Part shown: positions 11,490-19,896 of the stretch, piece after piece
Numbering within the stretch: position 1 is the first letter of the stretch
Layout: every line of letters begins with the position of its first letter
Sequence record: PQ356293.1
Strand: one strand, 5' to 3'
DNA length: 39,118 nucleotides
DNA from: Escherichia phage KKE5P
The notes under the pieces: model-generated
The model's input: only the letters and a program-made list of their open reading frames with translations
What the model was told of the DNA's origin: nothing
Databases searched by the model: none
Made by a program: the position numbers and the translations under genes

Positions 11490-14141
11490 TTACGCGAACG
11501 CGAAGTCTGACTTAAGGATGTCTTGGAGGTTCAAGTTACCTTTAGCCGGAAGTGCTGGCATTTTGTCCAATTGAGACTCATGCAACTGGTCAGCGAACTG
11601 GTCGTAGAAGTCAGCCAGTACATCGCAGGACTCGTAGGTGTCAACCATAGTTTCGCGCACAGCTTTGAACAGGTTGGCAGCGTCAGCAGGAATTGTCCCG
11701 AAGGAGTCATGAATAAGTGCAAACGATTCGATTCCGTACTTCTCGTGTGCCCACACTACAGTCTTACGCAGGTGGCTACCATCTTGACTATGCACAAAGT
11801 TAGGAGCAATACCAGACTCCTGTTTGTGTGCGTCAATCTCGCTATCTTTGTTGGTGTTAATGGTCGGCTGTAGACGGAACTGACCGAGGAACATCAGGTT
11901 CAAGCGAGTCTGAATGGGCTTCTTGTATTCCTGCCACACAGGGAAACCATCAGGAGTTACCCAATGCACCGCGCAACGCTTGCGTAGAATCTCCCCAGTA
12001 TTCTTATCTTTGACCTCAGCAGCCAGCAGCTTAGCAGCAGACTTGAGCCAGTTCATTGCCTCCACAGCGGCTACCACAGTCACGCTCACAGATTCCCAAA
12101 TCAGTTTCGCCATGTATCCAGCAGCCTGATTCGGTTGCGTGAACATCAGACCCTTACCGGAATCGATGGCTGGCTGAATGGTATCTTCCAGCACTTGTTG
12201 GCGGAATCCGAACTCTTTGGAACCATAGGCCAGCGTCATGACTGAACGCTTAGTGACGCTACGAGTAACACCGTAAGCCAGCCACTGACCAGCCAGAGCC
12301 TTAGTGCCCAGCTTGACTTTCTCAGAGATTTCCCCAGTGTTCTCGTCGGTCACAGTAACTACTTCGTTGTCGGTCCCGTTGATTGCATCTGCTTGTAGAA
12401 TCTCATTGACTTTCTTAGCGACAATCCCGTAGATGTCCTGTACGGTTTCGCTAGGCAGTAAGTTAACTGCACGACCGCCCACCTCATCACGGAGCATCGC
12501 GGAGAAGTGTTGAATACCAGAGCAAGACCCGTCGAACGCCAGAGGCAGCGAGCAGTTGTAGCTCAGGCCGTGATGTTGCACCCCAGCGTACTCAAAGCAG
12601 AACGCAAGGAAGCAGAACGGAGAATCTTGCTCAGCCCACCAAGTGTTCTCAAGTGGAGACTTAGCGCAAGCCATGATGTTCTCGTGGTTGTCCTCAATGA
12701 ACTTGATGCGCTCAGGGAACGGAACCTTATCGACACCAGCGCAGTTTGCACCGTGGATTTTCAGCCAGTAGTAACCCTCCTTGCCGATTGGTTTACCTTT
12801 AGCCAGCGTCAGCAGACCCTTGGTCATGTCGTTACCTTGCGGGTTGAACATTGACACAGCATAAACACGACCGCGCCAGTCCATGTTGTAAGGGAACCAG
12901 ATGGCCTTATGGTTAGCGAACTTGTTGGCTTGCTCAAGCATGAACTCAAGGCTGATACGGCGAGACTTGCGTGCCTTGTCTTTGCGGTATACGGCAGCGG
13001 CAGCACGTTTCCAAGCGGTGAGCGCCTCAGGATTCGTGTCGATGTCTTCCGGTTTCATCGGGAGTTCTTCGCGTTCAATCGCTGGGATGTCTTCGACTGG
13101 GCAGTGCTTCCACTTGGTGATTACGTTGGCGACCGCTAGAACTTTCTTGTTGATTTTCCAAGCGGTGTTTTGCGCAATGTTAATCGCTTTGTACACCTCA
13201 GGCATGTAAACGTCTTCGTAGCGCATCAGTGCTTTCTTGCTGTGAGTGCGCACCAGCGCCAGAGGACGGCGACCGTTAGCCCAATATCCACCCCCAGTAA
13301 TACCAGTCCAAGGCTTAGGAGGAACTACGCAAGGTTGGAACATCGGAGAGATACCAGCCAGTGCCCCAGCGCGAGTAGCGATAGCCTCAGCGTATTCAGG
13401 CGCGAGTTCGATAGTCTCAGAGTCTTGGCCCACTACGCCAGCGTTTTGGCGGTGCAAGTTAACCATTCCGGTTGACTCAATGAGCATCTCAATGCAGCGC
13501 ACGCCTACGTGAATGGAGTCCTCCTTGTGCCACGAAGACCACGCCTCGCCACCCATCAGACCCTTAGAGAGCATATCAGCTTCGACAACCTGCATGAATG
13601 CTTTCTTGTAGACGTGTCCTACTCGCTTGTTGAGTTGTTCCTCAACGTTTTTCTTGAAGTGCTTAGCTTCAAGGTCACGGATTCGACCAAAGCGCGCCTC
13701 ATCCTCAATGGCCCGACCGATTGCGCTTGCTACAGCCTGAACGGTTGTATTGTCTGCACTGGTTAGACAAGCAAGGGTGGTCTTGATGGTGATGTACGCT
13801 ACCGCTTCCGGCTTGATTTCTTGCAGGAACTGGAAGGCTGTCGGGCGTTTGCCGCGCTTAGCTTTCACTTCCTCAAACCAATCGTTGATGCGTGCAATCA
13901 TCTTAGGGAGAAGGGTAGTAATGAGAGGCTTAGCGGCAGAGTTATCCGCAACCTCACCAGCTTTAAGTTGACGCTCAAACATCTTGCGGAAGCGTTCTTC
14001 ACCCATCTCGTAAGACTCATGCTCAAGGGCCAACTGTTCGCGAGCCAAACGCTCACCGTAGTGGTCAGCCAGAGTGTTGAACGGAATAGCAGCAAGTTCG
14101 ATGTCAGAGAAGTCGTTCTTAGCGATGTTAATCGTGTTCAT
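11490..14141 (-). CDS. 1: Single-subunit DNA-dependent RNA polymerase gp1, 883 aa
   Basis: Near-identical from memory to T7 RNAP along full length (MNTINIAKNDFSDIELAAIPFNTLADHYGERLAREQLALEHESYEMGE... to ...SDFAFA). Confidence 0.99.
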   Translation of the reverse strand: MNTINIAKNDFSDIELAAIPFNTLADHYGERLAREQLALEHESYEMGEERFRKMFERQLKAGEVADNSAAKPLITTLLPKMIARINDWFEEVKAKRGKRPTAFQFLQEIKPEAVAYITIKTTLACLTSADNTTVQAVASAIGRAIEDEARFGRIRDLEAKHFKKNVEEQLNKRVGHVYKKAFMQVVEADMLSKGLMGGEAWSSWHKEDSIHVGVRCIEMLIESTGMVNLHRQNAGVVGQDSETIELAPEYAEAIATRAGALAGISPMFQPCVVPPKPWTGITGGGYWANGRRPLALVRTHSKKALMRYEDVYMPEVYKAINIAQNTAWKINKKVLAVANVITKWKHCPVEDIPAIEREELPMKPEDIDTNPEALTAWKRAAAAVYRKDKARKSRRISLEFMLEQANKFANHKAIWFPYNMDWRGRVYAVSMFNPQGNDMTKGLLTLAKGKPIGKEGYYWLKIHGANCAGVDKVPFPERIKFIEDNHENIMACAKSPLENTWWAEQDSPFCFLAFCFEYAGVQHHGLSYNCSLPLAFDGSCSGIQHFSAMLRDEVGGRAVNLLPSETVQDIYGIVAKKVNEILQADAINGTDNEVVTVTDENTGEISEKVKLGTKALAGQWLAYGVTRSVTKRSVMTLAYGSKEFGFRQQVLEDTIQPAIDSGKGLMFTQPNQAAGYMAKLIWESVSVTVVAAVEAMNWLKSAAKLLAAEVKDKNTGEILRKRCAVHWVTPDGFPVWQEYKKPIQTRLNLMFLGQFRLQPTINTNKDSEIDAHKQESGIAPNFVHSQDGSHLRKTVVWAHEKYGIESFALIHDSFGTIPADAANLFKAVRETMVDTYESCDVLADFYDQFADQLHESQLDKMPALPAKGNLNLQDILKSDFAFA

Positions 14142-14159
14142 TTAGTGCCTCTTCCAATT

Positions 14160-14212
14160 AATAAATCGTATCTATTCAGGCCACCCGTAGATGACCTGTA
14201 AGATAAGACTAT
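14160..14212 (-). promoter_or_regulatory. RNase III processing hairpin (R1-like) upstream of gene 1
   Basis: Phage-sense ttatcttacaggtcatctacgggtggcctgaatag. Confidence 0.55.
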
Positions 14213-15291
14213 CAGCCCATAAACATTGCGTCAAGTTTCTTATCGATGTTAAGTGCGCGACCACCAGCGATAGCCATTCTGTCAACGTTGTGCCAATGCG
14301 CTGCAATTCGTTCCTCAAGAGCCTTAAAGTCCATAGCGAACATATTGTCGCAGAGCATAGCGATATTGGTCCATCCCATTACATTCACAGCCACCTCATG
14401 GTTACGAAGTTCTTGGCGCTCAGCCATGCGCAACTCAGCAAGCATTCTCTTGCGTTTCGCTTGGTGTGCTTTACGTGCCTTACGGTTACGGCGCTTTACT
14501 TTGCGTGCCTCCAATCGGCCCACATGACGTGCCTTACGTTCCTTAGCGCGGTCGATTACTTTCTGTCGTGCGGCCTCCTCGACTTCCCTAATGAGTTCCT
14601 CAGGGTCAATGCTGAATGCGCCACCGTCTTTCTTCTGAGAGAATGACACAGGGTCGGTAATGTACGGTACATCGTTATCATCGAACATGATGTTGCCACT
14701 GTGCATGTCAAACGATGCGATTCCCTCAAAGAACTTGCGGATTAGCTTGCAAGTCTCGACGAACTCGCCATCCCATCCAGTTAACCCATCGTGCGCACCT
14801 GATTTGTAGTCAATGATGTCTCTTGCAATCTCAGCATACTTCTCGTGAGTGTCATTACCCCACGATTCACAGTCGTTGAGCGCATCCAGCACCACCGTAT
14901 AGCATCCAGCGTGGCGCTGTACATCGTAGACGTTAGGGATACCAGCGCGACCCTGATACATGCGGCAGAATGCGGTATATGCAGCGCCTGAGTCCTCTTT
15001 CTTAAAGCCCACCTTAATCACTCTGTTAGGCAGCAGCGGGTGTCTATAAGCAGCCGAGAAGTGACCATTACCGAGCATCTTAAACCCTGCGTCAGCCGTG
15101 AGACACTTCAAGGTAGTCCACCAATCTTGGTGCTCAAGTGCCTGATTCAGTTCGGTTAACTCCCCATCGCATGTTTCGCTGTTGACCATCTCGACCAGCA
15201 AGTCGATGAGCATACCTTGGCGCTTGTTAAGTTCACAGATTGGCAGTGCTTTGATTGCGTCGATAGCGTTCATGATGTCGGTGATGTTCAC
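14212..15291 (-). CDS. 0.7: Protein kinase / host shut-off protein gp0.7, about 359 aa (apparent GTG start)
   Basis: (V)[49 protein letters not shown]...; T7-type start aligns to GTG at 15289..15291 with GGAGA upstream. Confidence 0.85.
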
Positions 15292-15310
15292 TTTGTGTAT
15301 TCTCCAAATG

Positions 15311-15448
15311 TTAGATGTTGTTGAGCTTGCGGTTAGTGCGTAGTTCACGCTTAAGGCGTTCGATTCGCTGTTTCATTGCGAACCCATCAGGCGTGCATAC
15401 AGTTGCCCCGTTGGGCGTGTGGATAGGCATAACGTAGTGTTTCAGCAT
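15311..15448 (-). CDS. Small early protein, 45 aa (gene 0.6-position)
   Basis: Hand translation [45 protein letters not shown]; assignment by position only. Confidence 0.45.
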
Positions 15449-15576
15449 TTGCGTAGTGCCCCCGTTACGATGCAAGCGACCAAGTAAGCGCCTACAGCCA
15501 CACCTAAAGCCTTCCCAAAGGATGCACCTACAGCTAGACCAAGAGCGGTTAGCAGACCGATAGTAAGCATAGACAT
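15442..15576 (-). CDS. Small hydrophobic early protein, 44 aa (gene 0.5-position)
   Basis: [44 protein letters not shown] after GAGGGA SD; track ORF 15442..15684 trimmed. Confidence 0.5.
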   Translation of the reverse strand: MSMLTIGLLTALGLAVGASFGKALGVAVGAYLVACIVTGALRKC

Positions 15577-15590
15577 TACTCCCTCGTAAG

Positions 15591-15647
15591 TAAAGTGATA
15601 ATCATAAAGGCCACTCATTAGGAGCGACCTTGAGTTTACCACTTGGT
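15591..15647 (-). promoter_or_regulatory. RNase III-type processing hairpin, copy A
   Basis: Contains agtgataatcataaaggccactc, a 23-nt string repeated exactly at 15889..15911. Confidence 0.5.
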
Positions 15648-15664
15648 AGACTTGAAGCCTGTTG

Positions 15665-15865
15665 TCAATCGTTCCAACCCGCACATGTTGCTTGGTGTAT
15701 CACACAGGCTTGATACTCCTCTTGCGCTAAAATCGGGTTCACCCAAAATGTGACCTGTTTGCCGTATCGCACAACGTAGGAGCATCCCATTGACCCGTGG
15801 TAATACTCACGCAGCGTTACAGTGCATTGGCCTTTGATTTTAGATGTTGCCAGAAGTTTACTCAT
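15665..15865 (-). CDS. Hypothetical early protein, 66 aa (MSKLLATSKIKGQCTVTLREYYHGSMGCSYVV...)
   Basis: ATG at 15863..15865; lies between two near-identical RNase III-type hairpins; track ORF 15665..15937 trimmed. Confidence 0.5.
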   Translation of the reverse strand: MSKLLATSKIKGQCTVTLREYYHGSMGCSYVVRYGKQVTFWVNPILAQEEYQACVIHQATCAGWND

Positions 15866-15886
15866 GGTGTTAGTCCTATAGCGTGT

Positions 15887-15940
15887 TAAGTGATAATCAT
15901 AAAGGCCACTCGCATGGAGCGACCTTGAGCCTATCACTCA
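15887..15940 (-). promoter_or_regulatory. RNase III-type processing hairpin, copy B
   Basis: gtgataatcataaaggccactcgcatggagcgaccttgagcctatcac; paralogous to copy A. Confidence 0.5.
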
Positions 15941-16086
15941 GCAGACTCCAAGGCAATAGCCTTGTTGTTTTCGTACAGTTCCTTGAGGTGTTCCATTGCG
16001 AGCGACCAGTTAAAGCCACAGCGCACCATATCGCTATAGAACAGTACAGTTTGAGCGGTCAGACCATATTGCACGTTGTTAGCCAT
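15934..16086 (-). CDS. 0.4: gp0.4, 50 aa
   Basis: Hand translation [50 protein letters not shown]; start overlaps ocr stop (TAATG). Confidence 0.65.
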   Translation of the reverse strand: MANNVQYGLTAQTVLFYSDMVRCGFNWSLAMEHLKELYENNKAIALESAE

Positions 16087-16490
16087 TACTCTTCATCCTC
16101 CTCATGGCCTTCCTCTTCCTCGACTTCCTCAGGGCACTCGTTCAGCAAGTCCTCGACTTCCTCGACTTCCTCAAGGTACTCGTTCAGCAAGTCCTCAGCG
16201 TCTTCCCAGAGGTCAATCGTGAGTTGCTCATAGATACGTGCTTGCAGGATACGGATTACGTCCTTGGTGTCCGGCATCAGACCAGAGTCTTCGAACTCAA
16301 GGTCAATGCCCTCGCTTGCCATTACATTGAAAACGTCACTGTAATAGTGCGGAACGGCGTTATCGGCAGCATCATGAATAGCATCGTGCAGGTCATCAGT
16401 GTCGCGGATGTCATCATAACGGATGTTTTCTTTCAGCATTTCGTAAGCGTGGTCGAAAACGTTGCGATAAGTCATGTTAGACATAGACAT
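16086..16490 (-). CDS. 0.3: Ocr, DNA-mimic anti-restriction protein gp0.3, 134 aa (extended acidic tail)
   Basis: [50 protein letters not shown]... matches T7 Ocr; about 17 aa longer at C-terminus. Confidence 0.9.
16121..16197. repeat. Tandem duplication (period 42 bp) inside the ocr 3' end
   Basis: cgacttcctcagggcactcgttcagcaagtcct at 16121..16153 recurs with two substitutions at 16163..16195. Confidence 0.8.
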
Positions 16491-16510
16491 TTGTGTTACC
16501 TCGTGCAGTT

Positions 16511-16560
16511 GTTAGTGAATATCATAAAGGGCACCTTGCGATACCCTTGAGTTATCCGCT
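16511..16560 (-). promoter_or_regulatory. RNase III processing hairpin (R0.3-like)
   Basis: gtgaatatcataaagggcaccttgcgatacccttgagttatc upstream of ocr. Confidence 0.5.
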
Positions 16561-16757
16561 AGTCATGCACTCAAGAGTTATTTACCAGATTGTTAAAGAA
16601 CTTTAGGCTACAGTTTCGTCGAGCCGAGGCTATTTCAGTGTTAGCCGTCACTTGCATTATAAGTGCGACAAGCTCTTTATTATCGTGGTCGCTTGTGCTT
16701 TCGCCATCTATCCACTATGTCGCGTTTTTACACCTACGACACTCGGTGTCTTTCATG

Positions 16758-16798
16758 TGGTACATCGTACCGTGTTTACTTCTTGTTGTCAACCGTTT
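16758..16798 (-). promoter_or_regulatory. Host sigma70 early promoter A3
   Basis: Phage-sense TTGACA (-35) and TACGAT (-10) with 17-bp spacer. Confidence 0.6.
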
Positions 16799-16867
16799 TG
16801 TTTCACCTTATGTGCCGTGGTGCGCTTAAGTCACCTAGAAGACACCGTTTGTCCGGCTGACGTTACG

Positions 16868-16908
16868 TTGTGTATCTTACTGCATGTTACTTCTTGTTGT
16901 CAATGCCT
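16868..16908 (-). promoter_or_regulatory. Host sigma70 early promoter A2
   Basis: Phage-sense TTGACA (-35) and TAAGAT (-10). Confidence 0.6.
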
Positions 16909-16994
16909 GTTTTTCGTATGACTTATCAGGCTGTCTACTTATCCGGTTGACTCCGGTATCTCAGGGAGTGGCTTTAAGGCCGTTGTCCCGTTGA

Positions 16995-17035
16995 CGTGAT
17001 GAATAGTAAACGGTAGGACTCTTTAAGTCAATACT
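16995..17035 (-). promoter_or_regulatory. Host sigma70 early promoter A1
   Basis: Phage-sense TTGACT (-35) and TACTAT (-10) with 17-bp spacer. Confidence 0.6.
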
Positions 17036-17085
17036 CTTTTTAAAATTCTTTAATTTCTCCCCCTTTAAGGCCTCTTTAAGTAGTC

Positions 17086-17108
17086 TCTCCCTATAGTGAG
17101 TTGTATTA
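17086..17108 (-). promoter_or_regulatory. T7-RNAP promoter phiOL
   Basis: Promoter-sense taatacaactcactatagggaga. Confidence 0.75.
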
Positions 17109-17109
17109 A

Positions 17110-17330
17110 AGACAATGATTAAAGGTGTCTCTTTATAGGTAACAACAAGGCGTCTTTAGGTATGGTCTTTAGGTATGGTCTTTAGGTGGAGTCTTTAGAA
17201 GATACTTTAAGATGGGGATTGACTGAATGGGTCTTTAGGTGTAGTCTTTAGGATGTAGGCGGTAGGAATGACTTTAGGAGGTGACTTTAGGAGGATACTT
17301 TAGGAGACTGAACAGATAGGGACACAGAGA
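17110..17330. repeat. Array of about 10 CCTAAAG (plus-strand CTTTAGG) heptamers at about 11-12 bp spacing, left-end side
   Basis: Repeated ctttagg in gtctttaggtatggtctttaggtatggtctttaggtggagtctttag... Confidence 0.7.
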
Positions 17331-17487
17331 GACACTCAAGGTAACACCCAAAGGGACAACTCAAGGTAAACCATAAGGCCATCCCAACCCTTAGGGAACC
17401 CTCAAGGTCAACTGAAAGTTGACTCAAGGTGATTGGCTGGGCTTAAGGGACCCCTATGGGGGAACTTTGGGTTCTTAAACTGTGAGA
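17328..17487. repeat. Probable direct terminal repeat (single collapsed copy); physical left end near 17487
   Basis: RC of 17480..17487 is TCTCACAG, the T7 left-terminal sequence; downstream about 85 percent similar to T7 bases 1-200 from memory; length by analogy. Confidence 0.5.
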
Positions 17488-17489
17488 TA

Positions 17490-17660
17490 GTCACTCAGAT
17501 TTTTATGGTATATTTTAAAGGGCCCTCTAGGAACTCCTCAGGCCCTCTCTAGGACCCTCTTTAGGTGACACTGATAGGATGGCCTATCTTTAGGTATAGA
17601 CCTTACGGATAGACCATTAGAGGCTCTTTATGGGTATACTTTAGGACTTGACTCTATAGG
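17490..17660. repeat. Heptamer-like repeats (ctttagg / ctctagg) on the right-end side of the terminal repeat
   Basis: ccctctaggaactcctcaggccctctctaggaccctctttaggtgacac... Confidence 0.55.
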
Positions 17661-17727
17661 GATGAAGTGGTGTGATGCAATCATACCGCTGAATCCCTCG
17701 GTGAGCCATCAGTCGGTCAGGAAGACC

Positions 17728-17877
17728 CTAATCACTACAAGTGAGTATAGAGCAAACGGTAGACTCCAGTGAACTGAGGTCTCCAGTAAGAGATGCGTAC
17801 CCAAGGGCAGCACAAAGTACCACAAGAAAGCGGTAGGTGACTCTATGCCGCAGTAGGTTCAACAATAAGCGGAACAT
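17728..17877 (-). CDS. 19.5: gp19.5, 49 aa
   Basis: Hand translation MFRLLLNLLRHRVTYRFLVVLCAALGYASLTGDLSSLESTVCSILTCSD. Confidence 0.6.
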   Translation of the reverse strand: MFRLLLNLLRHRVTYRFLVVLCAALGYASLTGDLSSLESTVCSILTCSD

Positions 17878-18031
17878 GAGTCTCCTCCCTTTATGTTGGA
17901 CTTTAAGTTAAGGTGATATTAATACAATATAATCACCATTCTTAGAGGACACTTTAGGTACACCACTATGCATACTTTATGCACTCTATAAGTATTCATT
18001 CAGTATCTATATAGTAACCTTTCGTCCCTCC

Positions 18032-18054
18032 TCTCCCTATAGTGAGTCGTATTA
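18032..18054 (-). promoter_or_regulatory. T7-RNAP promoter phiOR
   Basis: Promoter-sense taatacgactcactatagggaga (exact consensus). Confidence 0.85.
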
Positions 18055-18135
18055 ATTTATCGTGTCTTTTCAGTAACTTAAGGAACTGACCATCCATGGT
18101 CTATAATGCATCCCTATGCAGTCCTAATGCATAAA

Positions 18136-19896
18136 TCACCACTCAATGAAAGACGTACCGTAGCCCTCATCGTCCTCAGAGTACACATCAACTCCTCCTA
18201 CAGACATCTCAATGATATGCGTAGCGGCAACCGTAGGACGCATCATGTGTTCCTCAAGGAAGTCAGCAAGCACTTCACCTTCGACCTTAACGGAATCCAA
18301 CTGCATGGACTCACGGAGATACTCAATGCCTAACGCAAGGGCATCCAATCGGTCATCATGTGCCAGAGCGCCTTTCTCACGAGTGATACGGGTCATCTGG
18401 TAGAACAGTGAGTACTTAACGTCATGCTTACCGTCTACGTCACGAGCGGACTGATAGTCTGCCCTAATGACCTCATCACGAATGACAAGGCGGTGAGTCT
18501 GCATGACTGGCTCAAGGGTATCACAAATACGCATCTCCTTCATACCACGAGCACGAATCTCTTCCATCGCACAGTTGTGGTGTTTAAGGAGGATAGGACT
18601 GAATACCTTACCAAACATACCATCACCGAAGTTACTCTCGTAGACAACCGTCTGGACTCCCCATTGCTTAGCTTTCTTGGCGAGCGACTCAAGGGTCTTA
18701 TCGGAGTAACCATCACGGAAACCTCCAGCTTCCATTAGGTAGATGTAACCGTTGAGGGTGTACAGCACAGCGTAACCTGTTTCATCCTTACCACGACCAC
18801 TTGGGTCAATGACCAGAATCTTCTGTTGATACTGACCAGAGTTGTTGGAGCAGTCGTGATAGGTATGCAGGTCATCACCCTTAAGGCCCACGTTAGGAAG
18901 GTCCTCAATGATGTTCTGACGGTTCGGAAGCCACTGGTAATGCATTGGTGCCTTCTCTAAGTCTAAGGCCGCTACTATAGCGTCACGGAGCCTCAGAGGG
19001 TACTTCTCGGCATCACTCAGGTTCGGGTTAAGCATGAACTGTAGCGTAAAGCCAGCCTTACCGTATTCCAATTCACGCTCACGTAGGTCATCACGGTCGA
19101 ATCGCACAGGGTCTGTTGGAGTACCAGCCAGAGCCTCAGGATTCTCCTCGTACTCCGCACGGAGCATTGGTGCCAGACGCTGAGAGTAGTAGAGGTTCTC
19201 TTCGCGTGTCCTTGGGTATAGAGCAGGCCAGATGATAGTGGTGTACCCACGGTTATCTTCAAGTTCCTTATAGAGAGTCATCTCAGTCTGAGGTGTTCCA
19301 AGGTAGATAACACGAGAAGTTGGCAATGGTTTAAGTAACGCAGCGAACTCCTGAACGAGAGTCCATAGCTTCTCACGGGCACCCATAGTAGCACTGTTAG
19401 ACGGAATCTCAACGTCATCAGCGATGATAATGTCAGCACGGCTACCAGTTAACTGACCAGTGATACCTACCGATTTCACACTAGGAGAGTGGTCAGGCTT
19501 AGCTGGGCCAACGTCAAAGCTGATTACAGAGTCACGCTGTCCGGGTCTCGGCTTCAACTCACTGAGAAACGGTAGAAGGTCAATGATGTTCTTGATGAAG
19601 ATGGAGTTAGCGTCTGCACGTTCCTTAGAAGCTGATACGATAAGTATCTTCAACTGAGGGTCTCTCCATAAGGACCACACAACGAACGCACAAGTGATGA
19701 ACGACTTACCGATACCACGGAAAGCCTGTAGGATGAACTTCTTGTTGTCTCCATTCGCCAGACATCGGGCCATGTCAATTTGACACTTAGTCGGCGGCGG
19801 GAGAGCAAGAGCCTTCCACAATACGAACAGGAACGCCACGAAGTCGCCCTTTAGTTGCGCCACAACGAGCGCATTACGATTGGCCTGAGTAGACAC
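18136..19896 (-). CDS. 19: Terminase large subunit gp19, 586 aa (apparent GTG start)
   Basis: (M)[65 protein letters not shown]...; first codon at 19894..19896 is GTG after AAGGAGGT. Confidence 0.97.

What the first reader, a model, noticed from the sequence alone, without database searches (positions are those of the whole stretch)
16086..16200. 42-bp tandem duplication lengthens the acidic C-terminal tail of Ocr
Two near-identical copies of cgacttcctca(g/a)gg(c/t)actcgttcagcaagtcct lie 42 bp apart in frame, so the protein ends ...[36 protein letters not shown] (134 aa; T7 Ocr is 117 aa as I recall). The tail is part of the DNA-mimic surface, so the extra acidic repeat could change inhibition of type I restriction or BREX-type systems. 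It could also be a replication-slippage variant or an assembly error in a repeat.
Basis: seen in the sequence. Interest (0 to 1): 0.5.

Follow-up and report, generated by a model that had tools for sequence, protein, structure and literature searches.

The report
In-frame tandem duplication in Ocr tail
A T7-like phage carries an otherwise normal copy of the well-known anti-restriction protein Ocr, with the last 14 residues of its final helix repeated once by DNA slippage at a known hot-spot motif. The allele is real and was not found in any other sequence I searched, but it affects a part of the protein that experiments show is largely dispensable.

Summary
On the minus strand, 16086-16490 encodes a 134-aa Ocr (Pfam ocr, 206 bits; E 2e-66 to T7 Ocr, PDB 1S7Z). 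Its 3' end holds a period-42, in-frame tandem repeat at 16115-16196. Forty nt are in register, with 2 internal mismatches and a 2-nt junction. Dinucleotide shuffles reach at most 27/40 against the observed 38/40.

Every other Ocr examined has a single copy: 120 listed homologs, 189 phage records, 18 IMG/VR loci and 10 contigs encoding an identical gp0.4. The nearest relatives are exactly 42 nt shorter (120 aa).

The junction lies on GGAAGTCGAGGA. This is the direct repeat behind T7's classic H1 (0.3-0.7) deletion, so slipped-strand mispairing is the likely origin. The most economical route is a 33-nt step plus a 9-nt step.

Copy 2 has since changed Tyr to Cys and Leu to Pro. AlphaFold ends helix D just before that Pro.

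Published truncations (Ocr99, Ocr109), a C-terminal Strep tag and 110-aa Ocr versions keep anti-EcoKI or anti-BREX activity. A 121-aa C-terminal fusion weakens only the anti-BREX activity. The duplication is therefore most likely a neutral or mildly modulating allele. An assembly artefact is unlikely, but cannot be tested without reads.

The parts
16086..16490 (-). Gene 0.3 (ocr) CDS, 134 codons plus stop. The stop TAA (16086-16088) overlaps the ATG of gene 0.4 by one base (TAATG).
   Evidence: ORF list. Pfam PF08684 ocr, E 9.8e-62, 206 bits against a cut-off of 25, covering residues 3-103. E 2e-66 to T7 Ocr chains 1s7z and 2y7c. The AF2 model matches Ocr chains in 8 PDB entries with TM (normalised to target) 0.89-0.95.
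16157..16196 (-). Repeat copy 1 (N-proximal), 40 nt, GAGGACTTGCTGAACGAGTACCTTGAGGAAGTCGAGGAAG. It encodes E99-E111 ([13 protein letters not shown]) and the first base of the V112 codon. Its sequence matches the single copy of the relatives.
   Evidence: Identical to the single-copy sequence of Escherichia phage 64795_ec1 and one synonymous base from Salmonella phage C2.
16155..16156 (-). 2-nt junction 'TC' (coding strand) between the two 40-nt segments. It completes codon V112 (GTC).
   Evidence: Codon-level comparison of the window with 18 + 2 + 10 relatives.
16115..16154 (-). Repeat copy 2 (C-proximal), 40 nt. It encodes E113-E125 ([13 protein letters not shown]) and the first base of the E126 codon. 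Two nonsynonymous transitions relative to copy 1: TAC>TGC (Y>C, codon 119, base 16135) and CTT>CCT (L>P, codon 120, base 16132).
   Evidence: AF2 ends helix D at residue 117, just before C119-P120.
16089..16114 (-). Remaining acidic tail, EEGHEEDEE (residues 126-134). It corresponds to the EEDYEEDEE-type tail of 120-aa relatives.
16150..16170 (-). Two overlapping copies of the 12-nt motif GGAAGTCGAGGA (16159-16170 and 16150-16161) at the repeat junction. They form a 9-nt tandem (TCCTCGACT x 2.6 on the + strand, 16150-16172).
   Evidence: the DNA search, TRF.
16117..16128 (-). Third copy of GGAAGTCGAGGA, at the end of repeat copy 2. This is the position the single motif occupies in single-copy alleles.
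14576..14587 (-). The same 12-nt motif inside gene 0.7 (protein kinase, ...[10 protein letters not shown]...). It is the partner repeat of the T7 H1-type 0.3-0.7 deletion. It is not part of the duplication, but it shows that the motif is the known slippage substrate.
   Evidence: PMC7261183 section 16 gives 12-bp direct repeats AGGAAGTCGAGG. PMC8923235 lists homology GAGGAAGTCG at T7 position 1,253.
15934..16086 (-). Gene 0.4 (50 aa), immediately downstream. Its arrangement relative to ocr is unchanged by the duplication.
   Evidence: The identical protein is followed upstream by a 116-122-aa ocr in 10 other contigs.

Best explanation
This is a genuine natural allele of gene 0.3 (ocr) in a T7-like phage. 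The window is a complete, circularly permuted genome lying on the minus strand.

Origin (inferred). Slipped-strand mispairing on the GAGGA / GGAAGTCGAGGA microhomologies at the 3' end of ocr re-copied the end of helix D. The most economical path from a relative-like 120-aa ancestor (...[22 protein letters not shown]) has two steps. First, a 33-nt duplication between the GAGGA of 'GCT GAGGAC' and the GAGGA of 'GTC GAGGAA'. Second, a 9-nt duplication of GAGGAAGTC in the first copy. Together they give the observed 42-nt period. Copy 2 then acquired Tyr>Cys and Leu>Pro.

Shown. The protein keeps every feature of Ocr up to residue 112. It then carries a second, degenerate helix-end segment and the usual poly-Glu tail. 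D+E rises from 34 (T7) to 44 per monomer.

Inferred function. Copy 1 keeps the structural role of the helix-D end. Copy 2, broken by Pro120, joins a longer flexible acidic tail of roughly 28 residues beyond residue 106, compared with about 11 in T7. The protein most likely still works as a dimeric DNA mimic that blocks type I R-M and BREX methyltransferases. The extension is probably neutral or mildly modulating, because this part of Ocr is experimentally dispensable and naturally variable in length.
For: Repeat anatomy and significance.

Ocr identity: Pfam, PDB sequence match, fold match to 8 Ocr chains. Only 6 substitutions against T7 Ocr in the first 110 residues. Conserved position upstream of 0.4 with the TAATG overlap.

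Single-copy relatives exactly 42 nt shorter: the 127-nt query spans 85 nt in Salmonella phage C2, PSP2-22, 64795_ec1 and EFA-2.

Slippage substrate: GGAAGTCGAGGA occurs 3 times in the tail and once in gene 0.7, against 0 expected by chance. The same repeat is reported to flank the recurrent T7 H1 deletion and is attributed there to polymerase slippage (PMC7261183; PMC8923235). Natural Ocr-gp0.7 fusions break at the same LEE(V) motif in Yersinia phages YpP-Y and phiA1122 (P0004, P0008).

Tolerance of tail changes: Ocr99 and Ocr109 truncations remain active against EcoKI (PMC3439906). C-terminally Strep-tagged Ocr is functional against EcoKI and BREX, and 110-aa Ocr versions overcome BREX (PMC7261183). 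Natural tails vary over 108-129 aa, and one 158-aa homolog (P0070) has a tail insertion.

Structure: AF2 places helix D at 78-117 and gives pLDDT about 50 after residue 120. Solved Ocr chains are usually modelled only to about residue 104-110 (target_len).
Against: There is no read-level evidence, so heterogeneity or artefact cannot be excluded.

The two-step (33 + 9) path is a parsimony inference; the order and number of events are unknown.

Neutrality is inferred from T7 truncation and tag experiments, not from an extension of this kind. A 121-aa C-terminal fusion did reduce anti-BREX activity about 10-fold relative to wild type while leaving anti-EcoKI activity intact (PMC7261183), so C-terminal additions are not always silent.

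Both post-duplication changes are nonsynonymous, and one is a helix-breaking Pro. That could hint at selection, although 2 of 2 is not statistically meaningful.

The AF2 control predicts the tail of a 120-aa allele as helix to the very end, whereas most solved chains stop at about 104-110 modelled residues. AF2 therefore says little about tail order.
Confidence: 0.75

Rival explanations
1. The longer, proline-kinked acidic tail is an adaptive change selected because it alters which host systems Ocr blocks or triggers. For example, it might engage BrxX/PglX better, or reduce recognition by Ocr-sensing systems such as PARIS (AriA).
For: C-terminal additions can affect BREX and type I R-M differently: the 0.3-0.7 fusion is fully active against EcoKI but only partly active against BREX (PMC7261183). 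In the two E. coli BrxX-Ocr cryo-EM entries the Ocr chain is modelled over 116-117 residues, against 104-110 elsewhere (target_len), so the tail may become ordered on BrxX. PARIS senses small, negatively charged proteins (PMC10802454). Both substitutions in copy 2 are nonsynonymous. The allele adds 8 acidic residues per monomer in the duplicated segment, giving 44 D+E against 34 in T7.
Against: No other Ocr among those examined has it, so there is no sign of recurrence or spread. The last 7 residues are dispensable for anti-BREX, and residues 99-116 for anti-EcoKI. Two substitutions carry no statistical weight. No functional data exist for any extended-tail Ocr.
Confidence: 0.12
2. The duplication is an assembly, amplification or consensus artefact, or a minority variant in the sequenced population. 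The dominant phage genome would then have a single copy.
For: The exact protein is absent from a collection of about 15 billion sequences, and the junction is absent from IMG/VR, JGI metagenomes and GTDB genomes apart from chance hits. The allele therefore rests on this one sequence. The region is repetitive (GAG/GAA-rich).
Against: The copies differ at two positions, which a mis-join of identical reads would not produce. The repeat (84 nt in all) is shorter than typical reads, and assemblers usually collapse such repeats rather than expand them (general knowledge). The frame and the TAATG overlap with gene 0.4 are preserved. The junction lies on a documented biological slippage motif. No other such repeat occurs in the window.
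Confidence: 0.08
3. The allele is a damaged Ocr on its way to loss. On this reading the duplication plus the Leu>Pro and Tyr>Cys changes destabilise helix D or the dimer.
For: Earlier work links some C-terminal deletions with structural destabilisation and loss of activity (summarised in the introduction of PMC3439906). Ocr is dispensable on hosts without type I R-M or BREX, and the region is often deleted in the laboratory.
Against: The ORF is intact and in frame. Copy 1 retains the nearly invariant Y105 and the conserved L106, so the bundle-packing end of helix D is unaltered. AF2 gives pLDDT of 94 or more for residues 11-60 and 81-110, with a fold matching solved Ocr at rmsd 1.1-1.8 A. The dimer-interface residues F54 and A58 are conserved (alignment; mutant named in PMC7261183).
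Confidence: 0.05

Closest known systems
T7 Ocr (gp0.3; PDB 1S7Z, Pfam PF08684), a DNA-mimic inhibitor of type I R-M and BREX methyltransferases
   Same: There are 6 substitutions in the first 110 residues. The Pfam match is full length. The predicted helices are the same and the fold match has rmsd 1.1-1.8 A. The protein is acidic (44 D+E, 7 K+R). The genome position is the same, as is the TAATG overlap with gene 0.4.
   Different: 134 aa against 117 aa. Residues E99-V112 are repeated as E113-E126, with Y>C and L>P. The tail ends EEGHEEDEE instead of EEYEEDEE.
T7 H1 deletion / '0.3-0.7 fusion' (Studier; Isaev et al. 2020, PMC7261183), and the natural Ocr-gp0.7 fusions of Yersinia phages phiA1122 and YpP-Y
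   Same: The rearrangement uses the same short direct repeat at the 3' end of ocr (AGGAAGTCGAGG / GGAAGTCGAGGA) and is attributed to polymerase slippage. It stays in frame and leaves the Ocr core intact.
   Different: Those are about 1.4-1.5-kb deletions between the ocr and 0.7 copies of the motif, and they remove genes 0.4-0.6. Here the outcome is a local 42-nt gain within ocr, with no gene lost.
Ordinary tail-length polymorphism of Ocr homologs (EEVEE[E/D/S/Y/G]n, 108-129 aa), and the 158-aa homolog P0070 with a tail insertion
   Same: The C-terminal end is the most length-variable part of the family, and it changes in multiples of 3 nt within GAG/GAA runs.
   Different: The usual variants add or remove a few Glu/Asp codons after LEEVEE. 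None of the 120 listed homologs repeats the helical DLLNEYL segment: best internal 10-mer match is at most 6/10, against 8/10 here. The P0070 insertion is unrelated sequence, not a repeat.
Engineered Ocr tail variants: Ocr99, Ocr109 (Roberts et al. 2012, PMC3439906) and C-terminally Strep-tagged Ocr (PMC7261183)
   Same: They alter the same region (residues 99 to the end) and provide the only functional data on it.
   Different: They are truncations or a short neutral tag. No one has tested a duplication of the helix end or a longer acidic tail.

Membership tests
Ocr (Pfam PF08684, T7 gp0.3-type DNA mimic) | Sequence match to the family profile above the curated threshold | tested here: met
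   206.2 bits against a gathering score of 25, E 9.8e-62, profile positions 1-101 of 101.
Ocr (Pfam PF08684, T7 gp0.3-type DNA mimic) | Homology and fold identity with the solved T7 Ocr structure (helices A-D) | tested here: met
   phmmer E 2e-66 to 1s7z and 2y7c. AF2 model has mean pLDDT 86.8 with helices 8-25, 31-45, 50-58 and 78-117. Foldseek matches 1s7z, 6r9b, 7eew, 8q56, 8v45, 8zek and 9ex7 at probability 1.00, TMt 0.89-0.95.
Ocr (Pfam PF08684, T7 gp0.3-type DNA mimic) | Extreme acidity (T7: 34 Asp/Glu and 6 basic residues per monomer) | tested here: met
   44 D+E, 7 K+R, calculated pI about 4.05. The T7 figures are given in the PMC4872106 abstract.
Ocr (Pfam PF08684, T7 gp0.3-type DNA mimic) | Dimer-interface residues conserved (F54/A58 counting Met1; the F54D/A58E mutant is the published interface mutant) | tested here: met
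   Both residues are identical in the alignment to T7 Ocr. F54 is invariant and A58 nearly invariant in 67 homologs. The mutant is named in PMC7261183. Dimerisation itself was not tested.
Ocr (Pfam PF08684, T7 gp0.3-type DNA mimic) | First early gene of a T7-like genome, directly followed by gene 0.4 | tested here: met
   Minus-strand gene order is ocr - 0.4 - small ORFs - 0.7 kinase - RNA polymerase. The order is the same in 10 contigs with an identical gp0.4.
Ocr (Pfam PF08684, T7 gp0.3-type DNA mimic) | Inhibits type I R-M (and BREX) by occupying the DNA-binding groove | not testable with these tools
   Needs efficiency-of-plating or binding assays. Inferred from about 94% identity to T7 Ocr over the core.
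Slipped-strand (microhomology-mediated) tandem duplication | Head-to-tail direct copies with no intervening foreign sequence | tested here: met
   Period 42, 2.0 copies, 0% indels. Two 40-nt segments are separated by 2 nt.
Slipped-strand (microhomology-mediated) tandem duplication | Short direct repeats (microhomology) at the boundaries in the inferred ancestor | tested here: met
   In single-copy relatives, GAGGA precedes the unit (GCT GAGGAC) and follows it (GTC GAGGAA). The 12-nt motif GGAAGTCGAGGA lies at the junction.
Slipped-strand (microhomology-mediated) tandem duplication | A single slippage event reproduces the observed sequence exactly | tested here: not met
   A one-step 42-nt duplication of a relative-like ancestor predicts a different junction or copy end. 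The observed sequence needs 33 nt + 9 nt, or 40 nt + a 2-nt filler, plus two later substitutions. This lowers the claim of 'one clean event', not the slippage mechanism itself.
Slipped-strand (microhomology-mediated) tandem duplication | Supported by reads or an independent isolate | not testable with these tools
   No reads are available. The exact protein and the junction are absent from all collections searched.

The most novel reading that the evidence does not exclude
The duplicated, proline-terminated helix end plus the longer acidic tail could be a selected innovation that changes Ocr's specificity among host defences. It might strengthen or extend contacts with BREX BrxX/PglX, where the T7 tail appears ordered in two cryo-EM models. 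Alternatively it might let the phage keep anti-restriction activity while escaping Ocr-triggered systems such as PARIS.
Probability: 0.1. Interest if true: 0.5.

Novelty: new member of a known kind. Interest (0 to 1): 0.2.

Why it matters
Ocr is the textbook DNA-mimic anti-restriction protein. It is now known both to inhibit BREX and to trigger PARIS. A natural allele with a repeated helix end and a tail about 2.5 times longer is a ready-made reagent for asking whether the dispensable C-terminus tunes target range. It also shows that the slippage motif behind the H1 deletion can produce gains as well as losses. On present evidence it is most likely a neutral length variant, so its practical importance is modest. 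It should be annotated as ocr, and the extra 14 residues should not be read as a new function.

Tried and rejected
(1) A gapped pattern, CTGAACGAG N{18,48} CTGAACGAG, in IMG/VR was far too unspecific.

(2) The exact junction, a copy-2-specific 24-mer and a degenerate junction pattern were scanned in IMG/VR, JGI metagenomes and GTDB genomes. Only chance matches were found, none encoding an Ocr relative.

(3) The exact-sequence look-up found no such protein in the collection.

(4) AlphaFold was used to ask whether the duplication lengthens helix D. The 134-aa model ends the helix at 117. The 120-aa control is predicted helical to residue 119, although solved chains usually stop at about 104-110. 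AF2 therefore cannot settle whether the tail is ordered; only the helix break at Pro120 is taken from it.

(5) Rfam on 14000-18200 found no RNA family, so an RNA-level role for the repeat has no support.

(6) The antisense ORFs over the repeat (16104-16550 +, 15883-16233 +) were treated as by-products of the strongly matching minus-strand ocr frame.

(7) A literature search for T7 tandem duplications at short repeats gave nothing specific. The useful sources were the BREX-Ocr paper and the T7 heat-adaptation paper.

(8) A one-step 42-nt duplication model was rejected on codon-level comparison with relatives.

Full report
**What is there.** Window 16086-16490 on the minus strand is an ORF of 134 codons.
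- It matches Pfam 'ocr' (PF08684) end to end: 206 bits against a cut-off of 25.
- It matches the solved T7 Ocr chains 1s7z and 2y7c with E about 2e-66.
- Only 6 of its first 110 residues differ from T7 Ocr.
- Its stop codon overlaps the start of gene 0.4 (TAATG). The same ocr-end = 0.4-start arrangement is seen in 10 other contigs that encode an identical gp0.4.
- The window as a whole is a complete T7-like genome on the minus strand, circularly permuted. Over the structural half it is at most about 94% identical to any deposited phage, and about 90% over the early region. The phage itself is therefore not in the reference collection.

**The repeat.**
- TRF reports a period-42, two-copy array at 16115-16196 with 95% matches and no indels. 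It is the top-scoring tandem repeat in the window. The repeat finder gives the same pair.
- On the coding strand the two 40-nt segments (GAGGAC...GAGGAAG) are separated by 'TC'.
- They differ at two bases: TAC>TGC and CTT>CCT in the C-proximal copy.
- The protein therefore reads [14 protein letters not shown] | [14 protein letters not shown], followed by EGHEEDEE.
- The best 40-nt self-match at offsets 10-200 anywhere in the window is this one (38/40). One hundred dinucleotide shuffles reach at most 27/40.

**Is it seen elsewhere?** No, in every collection I could search.
- Among the 120 best of 357 homologs from a 5.8-billion-cluster protein set, lengths are 108-129 aa. The exceptions are two Ocr-gp0.7 fusions (228 and 140 aa) and one 158-aa protein with an unrelated tail insertion. 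All have a single DLLNEYL-type segment.
- A scan for internal repeats gives at most 6/10 identities in the homologs, against 8/10 at offset 14 here.
- The exact protein is not among about 15 billion sequences.
- All 18 IMG/VR loci are single-copy.
- In the phage collection, 189 records match the 127-nt tail query. The best ones span exactly 85 nt, which is 42 nt fewer.
- Salmonella phage C2 and Escherichia phage 64795_ec1 encode 120-aa Ocr proteins whose single copy matches copy 1.
- Ten contigs encoding an identical gp0.4 carry 116-122-aa Ocr proteins that differ only in the poly-Glu stretch.
- Junction-specific patterns found only chance matches in IMG/VR, JGI metagenomes and GTDB genomes.

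**How it arose (inference).**
- In single-copy relatives the sequence is GCT GAGGAC TTG CTG AAC GAG TAC CTT GAGGAAGTC GAGGAA GAG....
- A one-step 42-nt duplication does not reproduce the window's sequence.
- The simplest route has two steps: a 33-nt duplication between the two GAGGA microhomologies, then a 9-nt duplication of GAGGAAGTC in the first copy. Forty nt plus a 2-nt filler is the alternative.
- The junction lies on GGAAGTCGAGGA. This motif now occurs three times in the ocr tail and once in gene 0.7, against none expected by chance.
- It is the direct repeat reported to flank T7's recurrent H1 deletion, which fuses 0.3 to 0.7. That deletion is attributed to polymerase slippage (PMC7261183 section 16). 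PMC8923235 lists the homology GAGGAAGTCG at T7 position 1,253.
- Natural fusions in Yersinia phages YpP-Y and phiA1122 break at the same LEE(V) motif. The matching microhomologies are present in this window.
- The duplication is thus the gain-of-sequence counterpart of a well-known slippage event.

**What it does to the protein.**
- Copy 1 keeps the nearly invariant Y105 and the conserved L106, so the folded end of helix D should be intact.
- AlphaFold (67-sequence alignment, mean pLDDT 86.8) predicts the four Ocr helices. Helix D runs 78-117 and stops just before C119-P120, with pLDDT about 50 beyond residue 120.
- The model superposes on eight solved Ocr chains at rmsd 1.1-1.8 A.
- A control 120-aa allele is predicted helical to residue 119. 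Most solved Ocr chains are modelled for only 104-110 residues: free Ocr 106, RNAP complex 104-105, AriA complex 106, Salmonella PglX 108, Vibrio MTase 110. The two E. coli BrxX complexes reach 116-117. AlphaFold is therefore not a reliable guide to tail order. I take from it only that Pro120 is a plausible helix terminator.
- The net effect is a longer acidic appendage at each tip of the dimer. That is roughly 28 residues beyond position 106 instead of about 11, with 44 rather than 34 Asp+Glu per monomer.

**Functional expectation.**
- Deleting residues 99-116 or 109-116 leaves inhibition of EcoKI essentially intact. That region mimics DNA flanking the target and contributes little; the critical charge block is residues 59-91 (PMC3439906).
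- C-terminally Strep-tagged Ocr works against both EcoKI and BREX. Versions with 110 Ocr residues overcome BREX, so the last seven residues are dispensable there too (PMC7261183).
- The one hint that C-terminal additions can matter is the 0.3-0.7 fusion (110 aa of Ocr plus 121 aa of gp0.7). It is fully active against EcoKI but about 10-fold less effective than wild type against BREX.
- BrxX contacts described for Ocr involve Tyr/Glu pairs and E67 (PMC11842806); no tail residue is named there.
- I therefore judge the allele most likely functional and near-neutral. An adaptive shift in BREX or PARIS interactions is possible but has no evidence here.

**Artefact?** This cannot be tested without reads. 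Four points argue against it:
- The copies differ at two positions.
- The frame and the coupling to gene 0.4 are preserved.
- The whole array (84 nt) is shorter than typical reads.
- The junction sits on a documented biological slippage motif.

**Verdict.** This is a real, apparently unique, slippage-derived in-frame duplication in a canonical ocr gene. It is a new allele of a known protein, of modest interest. Its mechanistic alternative (slippage) is the best explanation. Its functional suggestion is weakened by published evidence that the tail is dispensable.

Noticed in passing
window 1-39118 (whole): The window is a complete T7-like (Studiervirinae, Teseptimavirus-like) genome on the minus strand and circularly permuted. 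The early region runs 17.4 kb down to 1, and the rest continues from 39118 down to about 17.5 kb. The best deposited relatives are about 94% identical over the structural half (PHB20, IME390) and about 90% over the early region, so it is probably an undescribed species-level lineage.
   Followed up: partly
window 14576-14587 and 16117-16170 (minus strand): The 12-nt H1-deletion motif GGAAGTCGAGGA is present once in gene 0.7 and, because of the duplication, three times in ocr. CTTGAGGAA is also shared between ocr (16175) and gene 0.7 (14319), matching the phiA1122-type fusion joint. This phage may be especially prone to 0.3-0.7 deletions.
   Followed up: partly
window 15590-15657 and 15885-15952: A 68-nt direct repeat (81% identical, 295 nt apart) flanks a small ORF between genes 0.4 and 0.5/0.6. 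The ORF is 66 aa from its ATG and lies inside the 15665-15937 minus-strand ORF. Genes of 66 aa in the corresponding position are called in related contigs L199-L201 and L205. It looks like an inserted or duplicated module carrying its own copy of an intergenic element.
   Followed up: no
window 17147-17304: Arrays of a 13-nt unit (GTCTTTAGGTATG / TGACTTTAGGAGG; five 27-nt family members) lie upstream of the early region, near where the physical genome ends and the collapsed terminal repeat are expected. From memory they resemble the short repeat arrays next to the T7 terminal repeats; this was not tested.
   Followed up: no
window 16089-16135 (ocr tail, minus strand): Relative to the consensus of close relatives, the tail carries four nonsynonymous transitions, all A>G or T>C on the coding strand: Y>C and L>P in copy 2, and D>G and Y>H in ...EEGHEE.... 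A further synonymous change makes the His codon CAT rather than CAC. This could be chance under relaxed constraint, or a mutational signature. It is unexplained.
   Followed up: no
proteins P0070, P0004, P0008: P0070 is a 158-aa Ocr homolog from a 3.6-kb contig with an insertion of about 38 aa of non-repeat sequence inside the acidic tail. P0004 (Yersinia phage YpP-Y, 228 aa) and P0008 (phiA1122, 140 aa) are natural in-frame Ocr-gp0.7 C-terminus fusions. All three show that the Ocr C-terminus tolerates large changes in nature.
   Followed up: partly
PDB entries 9ex7_C and 8zek_B compared with 1s7z, 6r9b, 8v45, 8q56 and 7eew: The Ocr chain is modelled over 116-117 residues in the two E. coli BrxX complexes, but over only 104-110 residues in free Ocr and in the RNAP, AriA, Salmonella PglX and Vibrio MTase complexes. 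The C-terminal tail may become ordered specifically on E. coli BrxX. I inferred this from the listed chain lengths only and did not inspect coordinates.
   Followed up: no
window 14212-15348 (minus strand): The mechanical ORF for the gene 0.7 kinase is 378 aa from an upstream GTG, whereas related contigs aa. The real start is probably the GTG at codon 20 (VNITDIMN..., about 15291), which from memory aligns with T7's MNITDIMN. That would make GTG the start codon here.
   Followed up: no
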